In this document: in pieces, positions 3,991-13,398 of the stretch | How positions within the stretch are numbered: the stretch's first letter is position 1 | Layout of the letters: each line of letters begins with the position of its first letter | Source: an uncultured Porphyromonadaceae bacterium | GTDB lineage: Bacteria > Bacteroidota > Bacteroidia > Bacteroidales > Muribaculaceae | NCBI GenBank assembly: GCA_947575235.1 | Contig: CANPMT010000001.1 | Coordinates: 70,990-134,989 of the forward strand | Direction of reading: 5' to 3' | DNA length: 64,000 bases | Made by a program: the position numbers and the translations under genes | Notes under the pieces: model-generated | Seen by the model: the letters and a program-made list of their open reading frames with translations, nothing else | What the model was told of the DNA's origin: nothing | Database searches by the model: none

Positions 3991-5148
3991 ATGGCACAGA
4001 CACTTCATCCCGTAGTTCAGGAGCTCGTCGACCTCATCAAAGCCAACGGTTGGCAGGAGAAATTCGAAGAGGCTCTCAAGAAAGCCCAGTCTTACAACGT
4101 AGAGGGCTTCGAGGATGTAAAAACTCTTGATGACTACATCAACTGGTGCAACGCACAGCTCTCATGGGTACCTACCGAGAACTTCTATGGCAAGGAGGTA
4201 TACAAACATGTCTGCAAGTTCTACTTCATTCTCGACCAGAGTCCTGTGAAGGAGCTTCAGAATGCAGTCGTACCTCACGACAAGATGGAACCCCTCACCC
4301 CGCTCTCAGCATGGATGAGAAAGTTCGTCACCGAACTCGGCAACTGGATGGATCAGCCCGAATCACTCACCCCGGAATCAGAGAGGACTTTCTACGAGTC
4401 TCCGCTCTACAACATGGATGAGTATATCCGTCCGCGTGGCGGCTGGAAGAGCTATAACCAGCTTTTCGCACGTCGCACAAAACCCGGCTACCGTCCTATC
4501 GCCGACATCTCTGACCAGACAGTAATCGTCTCTCCGGCCGACTCTACTTTCGACGGACAGTGGGAAGTCAACACCAACTCTCACGTCAATATCAAGGGTC
4601 TTGACTGGAAGATCGAGGAGCTTCTCGAAGGGAGCCCGTATGCCGACCGTTTCAAAGGTGGTATCTGGATCCACTCTTTCCTTAACACTTATGACTATCA
4701 CCGTCAGCATGCCCCTGTAGGTGGCAAGATTCTTGAGGCCCGTGTTATCCAGGGCACAACTTATCTGCAGGTTCAGGCCGCTCCCAAACCTGATGATGAG
4801 TTCGGAAAGACCATCCTCGAAGGCAAGCGCGTATTCGACGCCCCCGACGATGCCGGTTATGAGTTCATGCAGACCCGTGGTCTGTTCGTGATCGACAGCC
4901 CGATCGGCCTGGTTGCCGTCCTCCCGATGGGTATGGCTCAGGTTTCATCAATCATTCCTACAGCTGAAGTAGGCCGCACTCTCCAGAAGGGTGAGGAGAT
5001 CAGCTACTTCCAGTTCGGCGGTTCTGATATCGTAATGGTGTTTGAGCAGGCTTCAAACGTCACCATCACAGCTCAGCCCGGTATCCACTACAAAGTCGGC
5101 ACGCAGATTGCGAAAGCCCATCCCGCAGTTCCCGGTTACTTGAAATAA
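3991..5148 (+). CDS. Phosphatidylserine decarboxylase-family (PsiD-like) pyruvoyl-dependent decarboxylase proenzyme, substrate uncertain
   Basis: SPAD (D184), DYHR (H237) and FQFGGSD (G344-S345 autocleavage site); N-terminal LHPVVQELVDLI helix; no hydrophobic membrane anchor. Confidence 0.85.
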   Translation: MAQTLHPVVQELVDLIKANGWQEKFEEALKKAQSYNVEGFEDVKTLDDYINWCNAQLSWVPTENFYGKEVYKHVCKFYFILDQSPVKELQNAVVPHDKMEPLTPLSAWMRKFVTELGNWMDQPESLTPESERTFYESPLYNMDEYIRPRGGWKSYNQLFARRTKPGYRPIADISDQTVIVSPADSTFDGQWEVNTNSHVNIKGLDWKIEELLEGSPYADRFKGGIWIHSFLNTYDYHRQHAPVGGKILEARVIQGTTYLQVQAAPKPDDEFGKTILEGKRVFDAPDDAGYEFMQTRGLFVIDSPIGLVAVLPMGMAQVSSIIPTAEVGRTLQKGEEISYFQFGGSDIVMVFEQASNVTITAQPGIHYKVGTQIAKAHPAVPGYLK

Positions 5149-5177
5149 GATTATCAAAAAAACTTGAAATTACAGAG

Positions 5178-5213
5178 AAGGGAACCGATAACGAGCTTAT
5201 CGGCTCCCTTTTT
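5178..5213 (+). terminator. Intra-operon terminator or stabilising hairpin
   Basis: aagggaaccgataa-cgagc-ttatcggctccctt followed by ttt. Confidence 0.7.
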
Positions 5214-5289
5214 AGATAATCCCGCGTTTTTATAACCGGCATTCGATTCCGTATTTTTTCTTAATTATATTATTAAACACTATTCGATT

Positions 5290-6984
5290 ATGGCATCTAC
5301 ATCTACATCCCCTTCCACATCTTCAGGTAAGGGTGCGGTTGCGAAACCGTCGAAAAAAGCCGTGATCGGCATGTGGGCCATGACCATTCTTGTTGTCACG
5401 AATATCGTCAGCATGCGTGGTCTTGCCTCACAGGCGGAATATGGCTATTCCTCTATTTTCTATTATGTGTTTGCCGCTTTGGTGTTTCTCGTGCCTTACT
5501 CTCTGGTCTGCGCCGAGCTCGCCTCTACATGGACAAAAAGCGGCGGTCTCTTCAGATGGTGCGCCGAGGCGCTCGGCCCTAAATGGGGCTGGGCGGCCAT
5601 GTATTATGAATGGCAGATGGTGGTGATATGGTTCCCCGCCGTGCTGATGTTCGGAGCCGTCACCCTGGCCTATATATTCTGGCCGACGAGTTTCGACGCC
5701 AAACTATCCACCAATGTGATATACACACTGATTGTGGTGCTCGCCGTCTACTGGGTATCAACCCTCAACACATTCCGTGGCATGGGCTATGCCAATAAGC
5801 TCTCCACATTGGGCGGACTCTTCGGTACGATTATCCCGGCTGCCGTGCTCATTGTCATGGGTATCGTCTATGTCTGCATGGGCAATCATATCTTTATCGA
5901 CGCACATCAGTCGTTCTGGCCCGACTTCTCGAAGTTCAGCACAATTGTGTTAGCGGCCTCAATCTTCCTCTTCTATGCTGGCATGGAGATGCAGGCCGTG
6001 CACGTGCCCAACATGAAGAACCCCTCGCGCACCTTCCCTCAGGCTGTGTTCTGGGCTGTGGTGATTATCCTTGTGGTATTCATAGGCGGCACTCTTGCCA
6101 TCGGGTTTGTGATTCCGTCAAAGGATATCAACCTCCTTGCCTCGCTTCTGGTGGCTTACAACAATCTGTTCGCCTCTATCCATTGCGAATGGCTCGGAAA
6201 TGTGCTGGCTCTCTTCCTTACATTCGGTGTCATCGGTCAGGTAAGCTGCGTGATAGCCGCTCCATCAACCGGTATGCTGGCTGTGGGACGCGCCGGGTAT
6301 CTGCCGCGTAAGCTCCAGAAGACCAACAAGAACGACATTCAGGTGCCCATCCTTATCGTACAGGGCGTGCTCGTGTCAATCCTGTCGCTCGTGCTTGTTG
6401 TGCTTCCCAGTGTTGAATCCGCCTATCAGATTCTCAGCCAGATGTCTACCATCATATATCTGGCAATGGTATTCATCATCTATTTCTCCTTCCTGCGTCT
6501 GCGCCGTACGGAGCCTAACGTGAAACGTGGTTTCCGCGTTCCCGGCGGTGAGTTCGGGAAGTGGCTTGTTGCCGGCGTCGGCATCTTGGGAGCTCTCGTC
6601 GCTATGATCCTCAGCTTCGTTCCGCCGAGCCAGATCAATACAGGAAGTCCCTTCGTGTATGTGCTTATTCTTATTGTGGGGTCTGCCCTCTTTATCATCA
6701 TCCCGTTCCTGGTATATGCCAAACGTAAAGCCAACTGGCGCGACCCGTCCACTACTTTCGAGCCGTTTGAATGGGAAATCGAAGGGCGCACACCTGACCA
6801 GATATCCAAATGGCCTGCCGGATATGTGCCTACCGAGGCTCAGATCAAACGTGCCATGGAGTGGGAGGATGGTGAGTTCGGACCCGTCAGCATGAAGACC
6901 GTGCATGAGGTGGCCGACCTCGCGATCAAACCTTCAGTCACCCCGACTGAGAATACCGACACTGCTGATAAACAGAAACCCTAA
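5290..6984 (+). CDS. APC-superfamily amino acid/amine antiporter (GadC-like)
   Basis: About 12 TM segments; IVSMRGL, LVCAELAS..GGLFRW, FYAGMEM, NPSRTFP, KRGFRVPGG motifs; long hydrophilic C-terminal tail. Confidence 0.88.
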   Translation: MASTSTSPSTSSGKGAVAKPSKKAVIGMWAMTILVVTNIVSMRGLASQAEYGYSSIFYYVFAALVFLVPYSLVCAELASTWTKSGGLFRWCAEALGPKWGWAAMYYEWQMVVIWFPAVLMFGAVTLAYIFWPTSFDAKLSTNVIYTLIVVLAVYWVSTLNTFRGMGYANKLSTLGGLFGTIIPAAVLIVMGIVYVCMGNHIFIDAHQSFWPDFSKFSTIVLAASIFLFYAGMEMQAVHVPNMKNPSRTFPQAVFWAVVIILVVFIGGTLAIGFVIPSKDINLLASLLVAYNNLFASIHCEWLGNVLALFLTFGVIGQVSCVIAAPSTGMLAVGRAGYLPRKLQKTNKNDIQVPILIVQGVLVSILSLVLVVLPSVESAYQILSQMSTIIYLAMVFIIYFSFLRLRRTEPNVKRGFRVPGGEFGKWLVAGVGILGALVAMILSFVPPSQINTGSPFVYVLILIVGSALFIIIPFLVYAKRKANWRDPSTTFEPFEWEIEGRTPDQISKWPAGYVPTEAQIKRAMEWEDGEFGPVSMKTVHEVADLAIKPSVTPTENTDTADKQKP

Positions 6985-6996
6985 TAACTCTCCATT

Positions 6997-8238
6997 ATGG
7001 TAAACACCGGTAAAACCCCGATATCCGTAATGACATTACTCGCAATCCTGGCAATTTCACTGGTAGTGAATTTGCCGGGATTGGCCATTACGCCAATGCT
7101 TGGAAACCTCTCGAAGGTGTTCCCGCACACAACGCAGATCGAGGAACAACTCCTTACGGTTCTACCTAATCTGCTTATAATACCCTTTGTTCTCCTTTCA
7201 GGAAAGCTCTCTCTCTCCCGCCATAAAATCGGGATTGTCGTCACCGGTCTACTTATCTTCACCGGCTGTTCGGTATGGTATCTTTTTGCCAATTCAATGC
7301 TGCAGCTCATCATAATAAGCTGTCTGCTCGGATGTGGCGCCGGATTGCTCATACCGCTCGCCTCCGGCCTTATCTCCGACACATTCACCGGAAAGTACAG
7401 AGTCAGGATGATGGGGGTGAAATCAGGCATATCCAACTCCTCGCTCGTGGCAGCCACATATCTCATCGGCTGGCTGAGCGGAGCCAACTGGCATGTCCCC
7501 TTCGCTGTCTATCTCATCTGTCTCATTCCGTTGGTCATGACCTTGTGGCTGAGGAAAATTCCTGATTCCGACCTTTATCCCGCTCCGGCCTCCGCCGCCT
7601 CAGACAAGACCGATGTGGCGCAACCGGGACACCCGGACACACATGACGGTTTCTATCCGGGTCGACTGTGGAGCCTGATCGGCGTGTATTTTTTTATAAC
7701 ATTCGCCACAATCACAATCTCCTATTACTGCCCCTTCCTCGTTGAGAAAAAGGGCTGGAGCACAACACTTACCGGAACTGTCACCGCTCTTTTCTTCCTC
7801 TTTATCCTTATCCCCGGATACTCCCTCCCCTTCTTCCTGCGCCATCTCAAAGGGAACACTTTTTTCTTCTGCGGTGTTATAATGACGATAGGGATGGGAC
7901 TCTTCGCCTTCGTCCCCGTTGCTTGGGTGATGTGCGTCGGTGCGTCGCTGGCCGGATTGGGCTACGGCATATGCCAGCCTCTTATCTACGACAAGGCGAG
8001 CCGGGCTGTGACATCGGAAAGCAAAGCCACTCTTTCGCTGGCTTTCGTGCTCGCGGCCAATTACATATCAATTGCGGTGACACCTTTTATCATCGACTTC
8101 TTCCGCAACATCCTCCATGCCTCCAAGGTGACTACCTTCGCGTTCATCGTATGCTTCGTGCTTCTTGTAGGATACACGGTCATCACCTTGATTCTCAAAA
8201 AGAAGTTTATATTTAATATCGACAACACGTATTATTAG
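6997..8238 (+). CDS. MFS transporter
   Basis: 413 aa, 12 hydrophobic segments in two halves separated by a central hydrophilic loop; starts 12 bp after the antiporter. Confidence 0.85.
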   Translation: MVNTGKTPISVMTLLAILAISLVVNLPGLAITPMLGNLSKVFPHTTQIEEQLLTVLPNLLIIPFVLLSGKLSLSRHKIGIVVTGLLIFTGCSVWYLFANSMLQLIIISCLLGCGAGLLIPLASGLISDTFTGKYRVRMMGVKSGISNSSLVAATYLIGWLSGANWHVPFAVYLICLIPLVMTLWLRKIPDSDLYPAPASAASDKTDVAQPGHPDTHDGFYPGRLWSLIGVYFFITFATITISYYCPFLVEKKGWSTTLTGTVTALFFLFILIPGYSLPFFLRHLKGNTFFFCGVIMTIGMGLFAFVPVAWVMCVGASLAGLGYGICQPLIYDKASRAVTSESKATLSLAFVLAANYISIAVTPFIIDFFRNILHASKVTTFAFIVCFVLLVGYTVITLILKKKFIFNIDNTYY

Positions 8239-8257
8239 AATAATTATAGATAAGACT

Positions 8258-9529
8258 ATGAAACACATTTCTCTGCTTGCAGCCGCATTGATTCCTATGG
8301 CAGCGGCTGCCGCCAATTCATCTGATGAATCTGACGTAAAGATTGTACATTCAGCTGATTCCACCTCCGTTTTCAATGCCATGCATGAGAATGCGCCCCA
8401 TTATATGAACATCCCGGATGTGCCCCGTTTCGCACTTATCGGCAAGGAGGGTAAGTTCTACATGGGTATTGGTGCCAATATAAAGGCCATCGGCGTTTAT
8501 GACGCCGGACACCCGGTCAGCAACGCCAACGCGTTCATTACCTCGGCCATCCCTATGGAGATAGCCCCGGGCAATGGAGGTCAGTTCCGTGTCTCGGCCC
8601 AGCAGAGTAATATCTATCTCAACGTCGTGGCTCTCCCGGGCACCAAGAACCAGCTCGGTGCTTATGTCGATATCAATTTCACAGGCAACGGTTATGCCCC
8701 CACCCTTTTCCAGGCATATCTGAAATACAGGGGAATCACTGCAGGTTACGCTTTCTCTATCTTCTCTGATGCCGCCGCTGCCCCGTCCACTATCGATTAT
8801 GAGGGTGTTAACGCCTTCACCGGTGTGATCCACGGCATGGTGGCCTATGAGCCTAAATTCGGAAAGAACAAGGAGTGGGGCGTCGGTATCGGTCTTGACA
8901 TGCCTACCGAATCTTACACAAATGCCACACATACAACCACTGTGACACAGCGTGTGCCTGACATACCATTCTATGTGCAGCGCTCATGGGCCGGTGGGAA
9001 AGGATGGCTGCGTCTCTCTGGTATTGTGCGCAATCTCTATTACCGCGACCTTAACGCCAATAAAAACTTCGACAAGGTGGGATGGGGTATCAAGGCAAGC
9101 GGCACCACACCTATCTACGGCGGTCTGTCGGCTTATTACCAGGCGGTCTATGGCAAAGGTATAGCAAGCTATATCCAGGACCTTACCGGCACGGGGATGG
9201 ACCTTATGCCTGACCCTTCCAATTCCGGCAAACTCGATGCCGTGAAGGTATGGGGTGCCTATGGCGGTTTCCAATATGACTTCAACTCGCGTATCTCCTC
9301 CACAATAGCCTATAGCCACGTGCGCACTTATGCCAAGGATTTCGCCGACTCATCCGTGTCGTGGAAATCGGGCTACCGCTATGCGCAGTATCTCGTCGCC
9401 AATGTGTTCTGGAATGTCAACAGCATCGTGCAGGTAGGCGCCGAATACCTGTATGGCCGTCGTGTCGACTTCGATGGCCGCCAAGCCCACGACAACCGTA
9501 TCGAGGCAATGCTGCAGGTAAGTTTCTGA
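8258..9529 (+). CDS. DcaP-like outer-membrane porin
   Basis: Signal peptide, amphipathic beta-strands, PSTIDYEG and RVPDIP motifs, GAEYLYGRR, C-terminal Phe (LQVSF). Confidence 0.72.
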   Translation: MKHISLLAAALIPMAAAAANSSDESDVKIVHSADSTSVFNAMHENAPHYMNIPDVPRFALIGKEGKFYMGIGANIKAIGVYDAGHPVSNANAFITSAIPMEIAPGNGGQFRVSAQQSNIYLNVVALPGTKNQLGAYVDINFTGNGYAPTLFQAYLKYRGITAGYAFSIFSDAAAAPSTIDYEGVNAFTGVIHGMVAYEPKFGKNKEWGVGIGLDMPTESYTNATHTTTVTQRVPDIPFYVQRSWAGGKGWLRLSGIVRNLYYRDLNANKNFDKVGWGIKASGTTPIYGGLSAYYQAVYGKGIASYIQDLTGTGMDLMPDPSNSGKLDAVKVWGAYGGFQYDFNSRISSTIAYSHVRTYAKDFADSSVSWKSGYRYAQYLVANVFWNVNSIVQVGAEYLYGRRVDFDGRQAHDNRIEAMLQVSF

Positions 9530-9618: not shown

Positions 9619-10113
9619 ATGAACAAAACCGTTTTTTTATTACCCGTGATGGCTATCCTGTGGGGATGCTCGCACAAGACGTCGGATAATACCACCTCTT
9701 CTGACGGTGACGCACCTGTGCCTATCGCCGTGAGTTTGCCCCCGGCCGCATTCATGCCTAAGGCTACCGCCATAAAGATCGATTCCCGTTATGCCGACAA
9801 GGTGGCCGTCACTCTCGATGGCTCCGGCAAATTATCATATTTCCCGGCACCCTCCGACATCTCGGCATCGTCAGCTCCGCTGGAACTGTGTGGCGGATGG
9901 TGGCTCAACCGTCAGGGTATCAGCGAGAATTCCGTTTTCACAACTTATACTTTCGCTGAATATGCGGCTCTCAAGGAGGTGCCCTCACCTCAACAGCTTA
10001 TACAGGCTGTGATCCCCGGTTCGGGTGTCGAGGAGATGATGCAGTTGCCCTTCACCATTTCGGAGGCCCAGGGTCATCTTGATGACATCAGGAAGATTGT
10101 GTGTCCGCAGTGA
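9619..10113 (+). CDS. Hypothetical lipoprotein
   Basis: MNKTVFLLPVMAILWG-C lipoprotein signal followed by a low-complexity Ser/Thr/Asp linker. Confidence 0.75.
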   Translation: MNKTVFLLPVMAILWGCSHKTSDNTTSSDGDAPVPIAVSLPPAAFMPKATAIKIDSRYADKVAVTLDGSGKLSYFPAPSDISASSAPLELCGGWWLNRQGISENSVFTTYTFAEYAALKEVPSPQQLIQAVIPGSGVEEMMQLPFTISEAQGHLDDIRKIVCPQ

Positions 10114-10133
10114 CAGTTTGAAATAAAATAACT

Positions 10134-11396
10134 ATGAAAAATAAAGTGACTCCCGTGCTGCTTCTCACCGGTTATCTGGGAAGCGGCAAAACCACTCTTC
10201 TCAACCGGATCCTCAACAATAAGAAGGGGATCCGTTTTGCCGTTATCGTAAATGATATCGGCGAGGTAAACATCGATGCCGACCTTATTGCCAAAGGTGG
10301 CGTGGTGGGGAACGACGACGACAGTCTCGTGGCTCTGCAGAACGGTTGCATATGCTGCACCCTGAAAATGGACCTCATGCAGCAGCTCTCCGACCTTATC
10401 GACGGTGGCTTCGATTATATCGTAATCGAGGCAAGTGGAATATGCGAGCCTGAGCCGATTGCACAGACCATCTGCTCCATGCCTGTGATGGCCCCGAATC
10501 TGGTGCGCAACGGCATGCCGAAGCTCGACTGTATCGTAACTGTGGTTGACGCCCTCCGCCTTCAGAGCGAGTTCGCCAACGGCGACCGTCTCACCTCTCC
10601 TAAAATTGCCGAGGAGGATATCGAAAGTCTCGTTATTCAGCAGATTGAATTCTGCAACATCATCATCCTCAACAAAATTTCGGAGGTTACCCGCGAGGAG
10701 GCCGACCATATCAGGCAGGTAATCCGGGCAATCCAGCCAAAAGCTGAGATTATAGAAGCCGACTATTGCGACTTCAACCTCGACCGGATTCTCAACACCG
10801 ATATGTTCAATTTCGAGAAAACCGTCACCTCAGCCACCTGGATCCAGGAGATTGAGAAACCTCTCGATGATGAACATGAGCATCACCATCATCATCACCA
10901 TGATGAGGAGGAACATGAGCATCATCATCACCATCATGATGAGGAGGATCATTCACACTGCGATCATGAGCATGGCGTGTGCCACTGCCATCACCACCAT
11001 CATCATGAGGGTGGCGAAGTGGAGGAATACGGCATTGGCACATTTGTATATTACCGTCGCCGCCCGTTCGATATCAACAAGTTCGATTACTTCGTGGCGA
11101 AGCACTGGCCGGCGAGTGTGATCCGCGCCAAAGGTATATGCTATTTCAACGACAATACCGATATGTCGTATCTCTTCGAGCAGGCCGGTGTGCAGAAGAA
11201 GCTCACCGAGGCCGGACAATGGTATGCCACGGCCCCTGAGGATGAACTCCAGCGTATGCTCGCCACAGAACCGGGTCTCGCCCGCGACTGGGATGAAACC
11301 TACGGCGACCGTATGGAGAAGATTGTATTCATCGGCCAGAAGATGGACCGCGAGGCTATCACCGCCGCTCTCGACGCCTGCCTGACAGATTTATAA
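10134..11396 (+). CDS. COG0523/CobW-family metallochaperone GTPase
   Basis: GYLGSGKTT Walker A, VNDIGE, GCICC, EASG, NK motif, His-rich insert, CobW_C-type tail (IRAKG, WDETYGDRMEKIVFIG). Confidence 0.93.
   Translation: MKNKVTPVLLLTGYLGSGKTTLLNRILNNKKGIRFAVIVNDIGEVNIDADLIAKGGVVGNDDDSLVALQNGCICCTLKMDLMQQLSDLIDGGFDYIVIEASGICEPEPIAQTICSMPVMAPNLVRNGMPKLDCIVTVVDALRLQSEFANGDRLTSPKIAEEDIESLVIQQIEFCNIIILNKISEVTREEADHIRQVIRAIQPKAEIIEADYCDFNLDRILNTDMFNFEKTVTSATWIQEIEKPLDDEHEHHHHHHHDEEEHEHHHHHHDEEDHSHCDHEHGVCHCHHHHHHEGGEVEEYGIGTFVYYRRRPFDINKFDYFVAKHWPASVIRAKGICYFNDNTDMSYLFEQAGVQKKLTEAGQWYATAPEDELQRMLATEPGLARDWDETYGDRMEKIVFIGQKMDREAITAALDACLTDL
10872..10952 (+). repeat. Tandem duplication encoding the His-rich insert
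   Basis: Two near-identical ~39-bp units encoding EHEHHHHHHHDEE and EHEHHHHHHDEE. Confidence 0.75.
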
Positions 11397-12377: not shown

Positions 12378-12444
12378 CCATGTGAATACCTTGTTATTCG
12401 CATGGATTTTTCACATCTTGATTATACTAAACACACATTCTACT

Positions 12445-13398
12445 ATGATCGAAAAGGTTTCCAACAAGATCAGGCACTTCTTCCATGTAGTGTCTAATAT
12501 CCGTCCTATCTTCTGGATTGGGCTCTATATTGCAATCACGCCGGTCTTTGCATTAATTTACTGGGCTCTTCCCGACGGACAGTTCCGCATACCGGATAAC
12601 GCCGGAACCGACTTTGGCTCCTGGCTCTATTACAGCATAGTCACTATCACAACTCTCGGCTTCGGTGATTATACCCCGGCTCACGGCTGGGCACAGGCCG
12701 TCACTGCCATTGAAGTGGTGTGTGGCCTGAGTATTTTTGGGTTCTTCCTTAACGCTGTCGGATCGATGAAGTCTGAGATTGATGTCGAATCGGAAGTTGT
12801 GAAACAGAAACAGGCCCACTTCGAGATGGAGAAACGGAAACTGCTTCTCACCATACCATCCATCATTCACAACCTGAATATATTCCTCTCTTATTGCTAC
12901 GCCCTGACCACCCCTGTTGACCGACGCAGCGACGACCAGCCTCAATATAATCCTGAATTCCAATTCAATGATATGGCCGACCTCTTCAAGCCATCCGGCT
13001 TATCATTCGATAATACCCGTCTCCCGGCTGTGGCCCGTTTTGTAAAATCTGCCGCTCAGACTTCTCTCAACCTCGATTCGCTCCAAACAAAGGTCGACCT
13101 TACCCTCTGGCCCGATATCCTGGAGAATTGCTTCGCTTTCGTGGCTAACTACCAGATGTTCTCCGCCACTGATGTCCTATCTCAGAAAGCGGATGCATTA
13201 CTTGCTGAAGGTGAAGAGATAAGTGCCGATAAAGCCGAAGCTAAGGTTGCCTCACAGATAGCCAACTGGACAGGCCCAGTCGACGTGAAGAAGGAACAGA
13301 ATCTCCAGCCAGTTATCGAACTCTATTTCTTTATCAAAGACAACGCGTCGCTTGCCCGTAAACTTGAAACAGCCCTTACCAAAATAGCCAATTCCTGA
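12445..13398 (+). CDS. Potassium channel family protein (2TM pore plus cytoplasmic domain)
   Basis: LYYSIVTITTLGFGDYTP selectivity-filter signature between two TM helices; ATG 12445 preferred to GTG 12382. Confidence 0.88.
   Translation: MIEKVSNKIRHFFHVVSNIRPIFWIGLYIAITPVFALIYWALPDGQFRIPDNAGTDFGSWLYYSIVTITTLGFGDYTPAHGWAQAVTAIEVVCGLSIFGFFLNAVGSMKSEIDVESEVVKQKQAHFEMEKRKLLLTIPSIIHNLNIFLSYCYALTTPVDRRSDDQPQYNPEFQFNDMADLFKPSGLSFDNTRLPAVARFVKSAAQTSLNLDSLQTKVDLTLWPDILENCFAFVANYQMFSATDVLSQKADALLAEGEEISADKAEAKVASQIANWTGPVDVKKEQNLQPVIELYFFIKDNASLARKLETALTKIANS

What the first reader, a model, noticed from the sequence alone, without database searches (positions are those of the whole stretch)
3991..9529. 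PSD-fold (PsiD-like) decarboxylase heading a GadC-like antiporter/MFS/porin operon: candidate new amino-acid decarboxylation system
Seen: a 385-aa soluble protein with the PSD self-cleavage triad (D184, H237, G344-S345, predicting a 41-aa pyruvoyl alpha chain) and no membrane anchor. It is followed by co-oriented APC antiporter, MFS and DcaP-like porin genes (gaps of 141, 12 and 19 bp), and there is no pssA in the window. Established: lipid PSDs usually pair with pssA; decarboxylase-plus-APC-antiporter pairs (GadB/GadC, HdcA/HdcP, AdiA/AdiC) consume protons and export amines; fungal PsiD shows that the PSD fold can decarboxylate a free amino acid (L-Trp). Inference: this enzyme occupies the GadB/Hdc position and decarboxylates a free amino acid such as Ser to ethanolamine or an aromatic amino acid to its amine, with porin entry and antiport. 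That would be an unrecognised acid-resistance or biogenic-amine route in a gut Bacteroidales, probably mis-annotated as lipid metabolism.
Basis: partly seen in the sequence, partly recalled or inferred. Interest (0 to 1): 0.88.

Follow-up and report, generated by a model that had tools for sequence, protein, structure and literature searches.

The report
PSD-fold decarboxylase–antiporter that excludes GadB
A gut bacterium carries a second, membrane-anchor-free copy of a lipid-enzyme fold beside an amino-acid exchanger, in a module that was never found together with the glutamate acid-resistance enzyme in the related genomes searched, so it is likely an undescribed vitamin-B6-independent way to survive acid by turning an as yet unidentified amino acid into an amine.

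Summary
Observation confirmed. The 385-aa protein has the PSD self-cleavage residues, no transmembrane segment, and a model that matches the fungal free-amino-acid decarboxylases PsiD and Ao-ADC1 over residues 3-342. It is an extra enzyme: this genome and 38 of 38 other carriers keep a canonical Psd. In 251 Muribaculaceae-family genomes it occurs in 39; all 39 have the antiporter clade, 34 within 2 kb. New here: none of the 39 has an intact gadB (42 genomes do; 6.5 overlaps expected), with both types in 11 genera. The antiporter is not true GadC: it lacks the W308 equivalent and groups with antiporters behind an uncharacterised ~580-aa PLP decarboxylase, which fills the same slot in other genomes. 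Best reading (0.75): a pyruvoyl amino-acid decarboxylase/antiporter acid-tolerance system; substrate unproven, a basic amino acid leading narrowly (about 0.3), glutamate about 0.15. Qualifiers: a terminator-like hairpin follows the enzyme gene; environmental homologs lack the antiporter; no activity or expression data. Ten paper searches found no description. This scan noted the same module before on other DNA (three notes). New variant of a known kind.

The parts
3991..5148 (+). PSD-fold, predicted self-cleaving pyruvoyl decarboxylase (385 aa; D184/D235-H237-S345; FGG|SD motif; F230 in place of the phosphate-binding Tyr of lipid PSDs; N-terminal helical domain as in PsiD/Ao-ADC1)
5023..5148 (+). 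coding stretch of the predicted 41-aa pyruvoyl alpha chain (S345-K385)
   Evidence: cleavage inferred from PsiD and E. coli Psd (PMC11929908, PMC7952604)
5179..5215 (+). intrinsic-terminator-like hairpin plus T-run after the enzyme gene; similar hairpins at 31 of 54 distinct enzyme-antiporter junctions against 8 of 60 coding control windows
5290..6984 (+). APC-family amino-acid/amine antiporter-like protein, sister clade to Bacteroidales GadC; V321 at the E. coli GadC W308 position, E107 in TM3
6997..8238 (+). MFS transporter; optional part of the module (10 of 21 GTDB loci); homologs of 41-43% identity also flank two gadB loci
8258..9529 (+). outer-membrane porin-like protein (Porin_2 over cut-off, DcaP below); in 16 of 21 GTDB loci; a distant DcaP porin follows gadB-gadC in G677

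Best explanation
The gene at 3991-5148 encodes an extra, anchor-free PSD-fold protein that likely cuts itself at G344-S345 to form a pyruvoyl group and likely decarboxylates a free amino acid, while the adjacent APC transporter would import that amino acid and export the amine, a proton-consuming cycle that likely stands in for the glutamate (GadB/GadC) acid-tolerance system. Shown: fold and cleavage residues, a separate canonical Psd in every carrier, linkage to one antiporter clade, interchange with an uncharacterised PLP decarboxylase in the same gene slot, and absence of intact gadB in all carriers searched. Inferred: self-cleavage, free-amino-acid activity, antiport, role in acid tolerance, porin as outer-membrane entry. 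Substrate, committed with low odds: a basic amino acid such as arginine (about 0.3), ahead of large neutral or aromatic (0.2), glutamate (0.15), small polar or aspartate (0.12). Tandem paralogs with different pocket loops would widen the range of amino acids served by one antiporter.
For: (1) Not the housekeeping Psd: own psd-pssA pair passes NF003678 (250.6/225) and TIGR00473 (110.2/107); 38 of 38 other carriers have NF003678 over cut-off; P0001 passes none of 6 lipid-PSD equivalog cut-offs. (2) Model (pLDDT 80.1) aligns to PsiD 8zia Z 16.8, rmsd 5.0, 285 residues, and Ao-ADC1 9jf5 Z 16.3, rmsd 5.1, 299 residues, over residues 3-342; E. coli Psd Z 10.8-12.5, 142-212 residues, from residue 82 onward. 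(3) E. coli Tyr137, the phosphate ligand (85% Tyr, 15% Arg in PSDs; PMC7952604 passages) is Phe in 60 of 60 antiporter-linked sequences, as in PsiD and Ao-ADC1. (4) Antiporter in 19 of 21 GTDB loci; 39 of 39 carrier genomes hold the antiporter clade, 34 within 2 kb, 33 co-oriented downstream. (5) Intact gadB in 42 of 251, enzyme in 39 of 251, overlap 0; expected 6.5, or 8.9 within genera; both types in 11 genera. Control: 28 of the 39 have a PF04960 match, against 124 of 251 overall (counted by hand). (6) The antiporter clade groups (SH-aLRT 97-99) with antiporters directly behind a 570-591-aa PLP decarboxylase in Plesiomonas and Polymorphobacter; the same PLP enzyme occurs in 8 of 251 family genomes, all with this antiporter clade, none with intact gadB, two without the PSD-fold enzyme. 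(7) For a basic substrate: E63 and D286 invariant in 60 of 60; D286 aligns to an Asp of Ao-ADC1 where PsiD has Pro; acidic residue at TM3 position 107 of the Muribaculaceae antiporters against Gln in gadB-linked GadC; cyanophycinase near 9 of 80 metagenome loci; Ao-ADC1 is an arginine decarboxylase with optimum at pH 4 and no PSD activity (PMC12904898 section 5).
Against: No activity, cleavage, transport or acid-survival data. Only 14 of 80 metagenome loci have the antiporter; the 51 sequences I grouped as environmental have none, and 22 of those 51 have Tyr at position 230, so Phe230 is not a clean marker; E. coli Y137F still keeps about 50% PS activity (PMC7952604). In 5 of 39 carriers enzyme and antiporter are unlinked. 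The catalytic-domain tree leaves the clade unresolved between PsiD-like proteins and lipid PSDs. The rmsd of 5 A is loose and two pocket segments (160-166, 280-292) have pLDDT under 50. Kin are not independent, so the P values (7e-4 pooled, 3e-7 stratified) overstate; no species tree was built. Five g187 genomes, three of them enzyme carriers and one with the antiporter only, hold 252-283-aa GAD-like ORFs below cut-off that I left out of the gadB count. Against a basic substrate: E63 maps by a two-step alignment to PsiD Y109, which is not a listed substrate contact, K76 lies next to contact positions, and the Asp at 286 is also present in Caballeronia and Burkholderia PsiD-like proteins, so it may be structural.
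Confidence: 0.75

Rival explanations
1. Sub-case of the best explanation: the enzyme is a PLP-independent glutamate decarboxylase that displaces GadB reaction for reaction and makes GABA.
For: Zero overlap with intact gadB in 251 genomes; the antiporter's best family is the Gln/GABA antiporter TIGR03813 at 614 of 650 bits; the genome has a glutaminase elsewhere; MFS and porin relatives also flank some gad loci.
Against: The antiporter is outside the gadB-linked clade and lacks the TM8 Trp kept in all 12 gadB-clade rows and in the E. coli, Limosilactobacillus, Frondihabitans and TyrP references; glsA is in 0 of 21 and 0 of 80 enzyme loci but next to gadB in 8 of the 11 fetched gadB-gadC loci by script label; the window's potassium-channel-like gene is unrelated to the gad-linked channel; the partner PLP enzyme in the same slot is not a GAD.
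Confidence: 0.15
2. The enzyme decarboxylates a free amino acid or related small molecule for biosynthesis or signalling (an amine exported by the MFS or APC protein), and acid tolerance is not its purpose.
For: Environmental homologs of 55-65% identity sit without antiporter beside cyanophycinase (9 loci), a class I aminotransferase (6), a small protein (13) or the PLP decarboxylase; a terminator-like hairpin separates enzyme and transporters; 5 of 39 carriers are unlinked.
Against: It does not explain the absence of intact gadB in all 39 carriers, nor the recruitment of a GadC-family transporter in the gut clade, which nests within the environmental homologs.
Confidence: 0.13
3. It is a second, soluble phosphatidylserine or phosphoserine decarboxylase for lipid metabolism, and the transporter link is a supply route for serine or ethanolamine or a coincidence.
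For: PF02666 and public names 'phosphatidylserine decarboxylase'; hmmsearch scores to E. coli Psd (106 bits) are close to those to PsiD (116) and Ao-ADC1 (109); helix 7-17 is amphipathic; Tyr at 230 in 22 of 51 environmental homologs.
Against: Canonical Psd in 39 of 39 carriers; no pssA-like neighbour was identified among the annotated neighbours; Phe230 in 60 of 60 linked sequences; acidic N-terminal domain; 2-3 tandem copies in 11 of 21 GTDB loci; interchange with a PLP decarboxylase in the same slot.
Confidence: 0.08

Closest known systems
Ao-ADC1, pyruvoyl arginine decarboxylase of Aspergillus oryzae (PDB 9JER, 9JF5; PMC12904898)
   Same: PSD-fold catalytic domain plus N-terminal helical region, GGS cleavage motif, Phe at the E. 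coli Y137 position, Asp at the D286 position; acts on a free amino acid at low pH.
   Different: Fungal, about 20% identity, GGST rather than GGSD; no antiporter link is mentioned in the review section read; membership of one clade not shown (one search used bacterial PsiD-like stand-ins).
PsiD, L-tryptophan decarboxylase of Psilocybe cubensis (PDB 8X4Q, 8ZIA; PMC11929908)
   Same: Best sequence and structure match (E 6e-17; Z 16.8, rmsd 5.0, 285 residues); same triad geometry; 11 of 60 linked paralogs even have Glu at the D184 position as PsiD does.
   Different: Biosynthetic enzyme with a hydrophobic pocket; PF12588 not hit by P0001; pocket loops differ.
Bacteroidales GAD system gadB-glsA-gadC-(K+ channel) (PMC8082179)
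   Same: Decarboxylase gene followed by a TIGR03813-type transporter; occupies the complementary set of genomes in this family.
   Different: PLP enzyme of another fold; glutaminase and channel are not linked here; transporter clade and TM3/TM8 residues differ.
Chlamydia aaxABC arginine:agmatine exchange system (PMC2720952 abstract; PMC8503770 listing)
   Same: Architecture: self-cleaving pyruvoyl decarboxylase plus inner-membrane antiporter plus porin.
   Different: AaxB belongs to a different pyruvoyl fold (recalled; P0001 hits only PF02666); the transporter here scores 34 of 574 bits on the arginine/agmatine antiporter model.
E. coli and Bacteroidales lipid Psd (PDB 7CNW, 6L06; NF003678)
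   Same: Catalytic domain and D/D-H-S cleavage residues.
   Different: No amphipathic membrane domain alignment before residue 82, Tyr137 replaced, no pssA link, equivalog cut-offs not reached; a true Psd exists elsewhere in the genome.

Membership tests
PSD fold (PF02666) | Profile score over the curated cut-off and D/H/S self-cleavage residues | tested here: met
   153.8 bits against 22; D184, D235, H237, S345
Lipid phosphatidylserine decarboxylase | NCBIfam equivalog cut-off | tested here: not met
   best 100.4 of 371 (NF001941); none of 6 reached
Lipid phosphatidylserine decarboxylase | Phosphate-binding Tyr/Arg at E. coli position 137 | tested here: not met
   F230; Phe in 60 of 60 antiporter-linked sequences
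Lipid phosphatidylserine decarboxylase | Membrane anchor or pssA linkage | tested here: not met
   no transmembrane segment, acidic N-domain; pssA is beside the other psd on contig C47. A monotopic amphipathic anchor is not strictly excluded.
Lipid phosphatidylserine decarboxylase | Activity on phosphatidylserine | not testable with these tools
   needs purified enzyme
PsiD / Ao-ADC1-like free-amino-acid decarboxylases | N-terminal helical domain superposing on PsiD/Ao-ADC1 | tested here: met
   aligned range 3-342, Z 16.8 and 16.3, rmsd 5.0-5.1, 285-299 residues
PsiD / Ao-ADC1-like free-amino-acid decarboxylases | PF12588 (PsiD-like domain) hit | tested here: not met
   no hit at E<=0.001; the Atlas nearest cluster of homolog P0110 has PF12588 on 83% of members, a lead only
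PsiD / Ao-ADC1-like free-amino-acid decarboxylases | One clade with PsiD-like proteins to the exclusion of lipid PSDs | tested here: inconclusive
   own clade of 18 rows (SH-aLRT 97) in an open fork with PsiD-like stand-ins and lipid PSDs; fungal sequences not in the tree
PsiD / Ao-ADC1-like free-amino-acid decarboxylases | Decarboxylation of a free amino acid | not testable with these tools
   needs assay
GAD system (GadB/GadC) | PLP glutamate decarboxylase GadB | tested here: not met
   no PF00282 or TIGR01788 match in this genome (89.9% complete)
GAD system (GadB/GadC) | Transporter over TIGR03813 cut-off, inside the gadB-linked clade, TM8 Trp kept | tested here: not met
   614 of 650 (gadB-linked example 788.5); sister clade; V321
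Amino-acid decarboxylase/antiporter acid-tolerance systems (general kind) | Decarboxylase gene conserved next to an APC antiporter-family gene | tested here: met
   34 of 39 genomes within 2 kb; 19 of 21 GTDB loci
Amino-acid decarboxylase/antiporter acid-tolerance systems (general kind) | Substrate/product exchange, low-pH activity, substrate-dependent survival | not testable with these tools
   indirect only: no co-occurrence with intact gadB
Chlamydia aaxABC | AaxB-type pyruvoyl arginine decarboxylase and AdiC-type antiporter | tested here: not met
   P0001 hits only PF02666; transporter 34.3 of 574 bits on NF007929; analogy in architecture only

The most novel reading that the evidence does not exclude
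Muribaculaceae have replaced the PLP-dependent GadB system, repeatedly and within many genera, by a PSD-fold pyruvoyl decarboxylase recruited from environmental bacteria and plugged into an antiporter taken from a second, uncharacterised PLP-decarboxylase system. Tandem paralogs form a panel for several amino acids, making these abundant gut commensals an unrecognised, B6-independent source of bioactive amines (or, in the boldest sub-case, of GABA) hidden under the label 'phosphatidylserine decarboxylase'.
Probability: 0.4. Interest if true: 0.8.

Novelty: new variant of a known kind. Interest (0 to 1): 0.64.

Why it matters
If true it is a bacterial case of the PSD fold working on a free amino acid inside a decarboxylase/antiporter cycle; the known cases I could read about are fungal. 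About 16% of the family genomes sampled (39 of 251) carry it under a lipid-enzyme label, so surveys of amine or GABA production that rely on PLP-decarboxylase, hdcA or gadB annotations would miss it. The exclusion with gadB gives a ready comparison of carrier and gadB strains, and the shared antiporter clade ties it to a second orphan decarboxylase family found in Bacteroidales and Proteobacteria, so one substrate screen could settle two unannotated families.

Tried and rejected
Glutamate as default substrate: raised by the gadB exclusion, lowered by transporter tree and TM8 residue. Replacement of PanD, suggested by panB upstream: the genome has panD and panB is near only 3 of 21 GTDB loci. 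Truncated GAD-like ORFs of genus g187 as decaying gadB: 43-45% identity to family gadB and other neighbours, so not read as decay. Window Ion_trans_2 gene as the gad-linked channel: no similarity. Pyruvoyl histidine decarboxylase search: no match, but the control rang nowhere, so uninformative. Class-wide transporter search: 3 of 261 genomes, little use. Phylum search: besides G000, 29 of 400 genomes have only distant homologs (25-37% identity), none with an APC gene within the 1.5 kb flanks. Naming the partner PLP decarboxylase: only weak, sub-cut-off hits (TyrDC, DABA decarboxylase, PanP) and generic names. Substrate from structure: no coordinates available for docking; pocket mapped by alignment only. 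Bacteroidota promoter motif (recalled TAnnTTTG and variants): none printed upstream of the enzyme or the antiporter. Papers PMC11107147 and PubMed 39321488 (primary Ao-ADC1 work) are not held, so Ao-ADC1's agmatine contacts are unchecked. No complex prediction was run. Literature: 10 searches listed no paper on a bacterial PSD-fold decarboxylase with an antiporter; 'PsiD-like' with 'bacterial' gave 0 papers, 'Muribaculaceae' with 'phosphatidylserine decarboxylase' 1 unrelated listing; subscription journals are not covered and no supplements were read.


Full report
Observation. The four ORFs, their sizes, orientation and gaps are as described. ORF1 is a PF02666 protein with D184, D235, H237 and FGG-SD; ORF2 an APC permease nearest to the Bacteroidales-type GadC model (614 of 650 bits); ORF3 an MFS protein; ORF4 a porin-like protein with DcaP below cut-off. 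Close relatives are labelled Muribaculaceae. G+C of the four genes (0.51-0.53) matches the genome (0.51). A hairpin with T-run follows ORF1, and similar hairpins occur at 31 of 54 distinct junctions against 8 of 60 coding control windows, a control that does not match intergenic base composition. The enzyme may therefore be made in excess of the transporters; one transcript is not shown.

It is not the housekeeping lipid enzyme. Contig C47 carries a 222-aa Psd beside pssA, both over their equivalog cut-offs. All 38 other carrier genomes tested have the canonical Psd over cut-off. P0001 reaches none of six lipid-PSD cut-offs, has no transmembrane segment and an acidic N-terminal third. Its model (pLDDT 80.1; segments 160-166 and 280-292 under 50) superposes on PsiD (Z 16.8, rmsd 5.0, 285 residues) and on the Aspergillus arginine decarboxylase Ao-ADC1 (Z 16.3, rmsd 5.1, 299 residues) over residues 3-342, but on E. 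coli Psd only from residue 82 onward (Z 10.8-12.5). E. coli Tyr137, which binds the lipid phosphate (PMC7952604, passages), aligns to F230, as in both fungal enzymes; Phe is found in 60 of 60 antiporter-linked sequences but Tyr in 22 of 51 that I grouped by hand as environmental. So it is built like PsiD/Ao-ADC1, but membership of their clade is not shown.

Linkage. Of 21 GTDB loci, 19 have the APC gene, 16 the porin, 10 the MFS gene, and 11 carry two or three tandem copies of the enzyme. In 251 family genomes, 46 matched the enzyme profile; I counted 39 as the close clade (E at most 1e-138) and dropped 7 distant ones (E 1e-57 to 1e-67; none of them has intact gadB either). The transporter matched 81 genomes: 43 with a copy of at least 57% identity, 37 at 45-50%, one at 38%. 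All 39 enzyme carriers are among the 43; 34 have the two genes within 2 kb, 33 co-oriented with the transporter downstream. Outside the gut clade the link is absent: 14 of the best 80 metagenome loci (of 484 found) have the APC gene; others of 55-65% identity sit by cyanophycinase (9 loci), a class I aminotransferase (6), an unassigned 150-aa protein (13) or a group II PLP decarboxylase (5). The gut sequences nest within these, which suggests later recruitment to the antiporter.

Exclusion with gadB. TIGR01788 is over cut-off in 42 of the same 251 genomes, 36 of them among the 37 with the 45-50% transporter. None of the 42 has the enzyme or the 57%-plus transporter; 6.5 overlaps are expected overall and 8.9 within genera, and both types occur in 11 genera. 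The P values (7e-4; 3e-7) overstate because kin are not independent, and no species tree was built. Fourteen genomes with sub-cut-off TIGR01788 matches were left out, among them five g187 genomes with 252-283-aa GAD-like ORFs. As a control, glutaminase-family matches are not depleted in carriers (28 of 39 against 124 of 251). GadB with its antiporter protects Bacteroides from acid (PMC8082179, passages). I infer that the two modules do the same physiological job.

The transporter is not GadC. In trees of 96 and 34 rows the window's clade is sister to the gadB-linked clade and groups, with SH-aLRT 97-99 from a quick search without bootstrap, with transporters lying directly behind a 570-591-aa PLP decarboxylase in Plesiomonas and Polymorphobacter; Sphingomonas (split genes) and Escherichia albertii show the same gene pair but were not in the tree. 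The E. coli GadC W308 position is Trp in all gadB-linked rows and TyrP but V321 here and a non-Trp residue across the clade; TM3 position 107 is Glu/Asp in the Muribaculaceae rows and Gln in gadB-linked rows (the gating role of W308 is recalled, not read). That PLP enzyme (54-60% identical across phyla, no family cut-off reached) occurs in 8 of 251 family genomes, all with this transporter clade and none with intact gadB: alone before the transporter in G486, G563 and G646, and before enzyme-plus-transporter in G408, G490, G519 and G560. A PLP decarboxylase and the PSD-fold protein thus fill the same slot, which is the strongest indirect evidence that the latter is an amino-acid decarboxylase. 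glsA is at 0 of 21 and 0 of 80 enzyme loci.

Mechanism. Likely: self-cleavage at G344-S345 gives a pyruvoyl alpha chain; an amino acid enters through the porin and the APC protein, forms a Schiff base, loses CO2 with uptake of a proton, and the amine leaves by exchange. All of these steps are inferred from PsiD, Ao-ADC1 and known decarboxylase/antiporter systems. Substrate: invariant E63 and D286, the match of D286 to an Ao-ADC1 Asp, the acidic TM3 residue and cyanophycinase neighbours lean to a basic amino acid (about 0.3); E63 maps to a PsiD position not listed as a contact, K76 is close by, and D286 is shared with other bacterial PsiD-like proteins, so this is weak. Tandem paralogs differ at 75-76, 184, 232-234 and 313-317, as expected for divergent specificity.

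Comparison and novelty. It works like GadB/GadC, AdiA/AdiC or, in architecture, the chlamydial aaxABC porin/pyruvoyl decarboxylase/antiporter cluster (PMC2720952, abstract), but is a member of none. The enzyme precedents are fungal (PMC11929908: outline, first part of Results and of Discussion; PMC12904898: abstract, section 5, passages). PMC6250119 (passages) lists gad loci and mentions no porin or MFS. PMC12484125, a survey of gut amino-acid decarboxylases, was seen only as a listing. Ten searches listed no description of this module; subscription journals and supplements were not seen and could hold one. Three earlier notes of this scan describe the same module in other genomes, and a fourth gave the lead to Ao-ADC1, which I checked. 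Verdict: real, conserved, new variant of a known kind; interest 0.64, limited by the unknown substrate and the lack of any functional data.

Noticed in passing
L026:8801-10405 (G000:C28), minus strand: A second transporter of the same clade (59% to P0002) with no decarboxylase beside it, about 800 bp from the contig end and upstream of a family 4 glycosyltransferase; such stand-alone second copies are common in carrier genomes.
   Followed up: partly
L246:3567-5318; L286:2123-3898; L287:1094-2839; L300:2186-3898: An uncharacterised ~580-aa group II PLP decarboxylase family paired with a 'GadC'-labelled antiporter in Bacteroidales, Plesiomonas, Polymorphobacter, Sphingomonas and E. albertii; at least 605 relatives at E<=1e-100; copies in G519 and G525 contain a stop codon.
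   Followed up: partly
L151-L155 (genus g187): Five genomes carry a 252-283-aa GAD-like ORF (43-45% to family gadB, TIGR01788 165-213 of 380 bits) without gadC beside it; remnant or distinct short protein, unexplained.
   Followed up: partly
L177, L183, L192, L206, L209, L217, L230: Environmental homologs cluster with cyanophycinase, a class I aminotransferase, a 150-aa protein of no known family, DUF155 and stress genes (catalase, DUF4142); one locus has cyanophycin synthetase.
   Followed up: partly
L243 (G677): gadB-gadC followed by a DcaP porin; in B. finegoldii (L289) and G605 (L137) an MFS gene 41-43% identical to the window's flanks the gad genes, so porin and MFS accessories are shared between decarboxylase cassettes.
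   Followed up: partly
window 9619-11396: A 164-aa lipoprotein-like ORF with no Pfam hit and a CobW/ZigA-like GTPase with a long His-rich insert follow the porin; both are near the module also in L013 and L014, probably local synteny.
   Followed up: no
window 12382-13398: Ion_trans_2 potassium-channel-like gene 2.9 kb downstream; not similar to the gad-linked channel of Parabacteroides.
   Followed up: yes
L147-L150 and G639, G569: Six genomes have gadB over cut-off but no match to the transporter query; in four fetched loci gadB stands without glsA or gadC.
   Followed up: no
L029-L057: Distant 400-585-aa homologs (25-37%) with the same FGGSD motif are scattered through the phylum, mostly as stand-alone genes; function unknown.
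   Followed up: no
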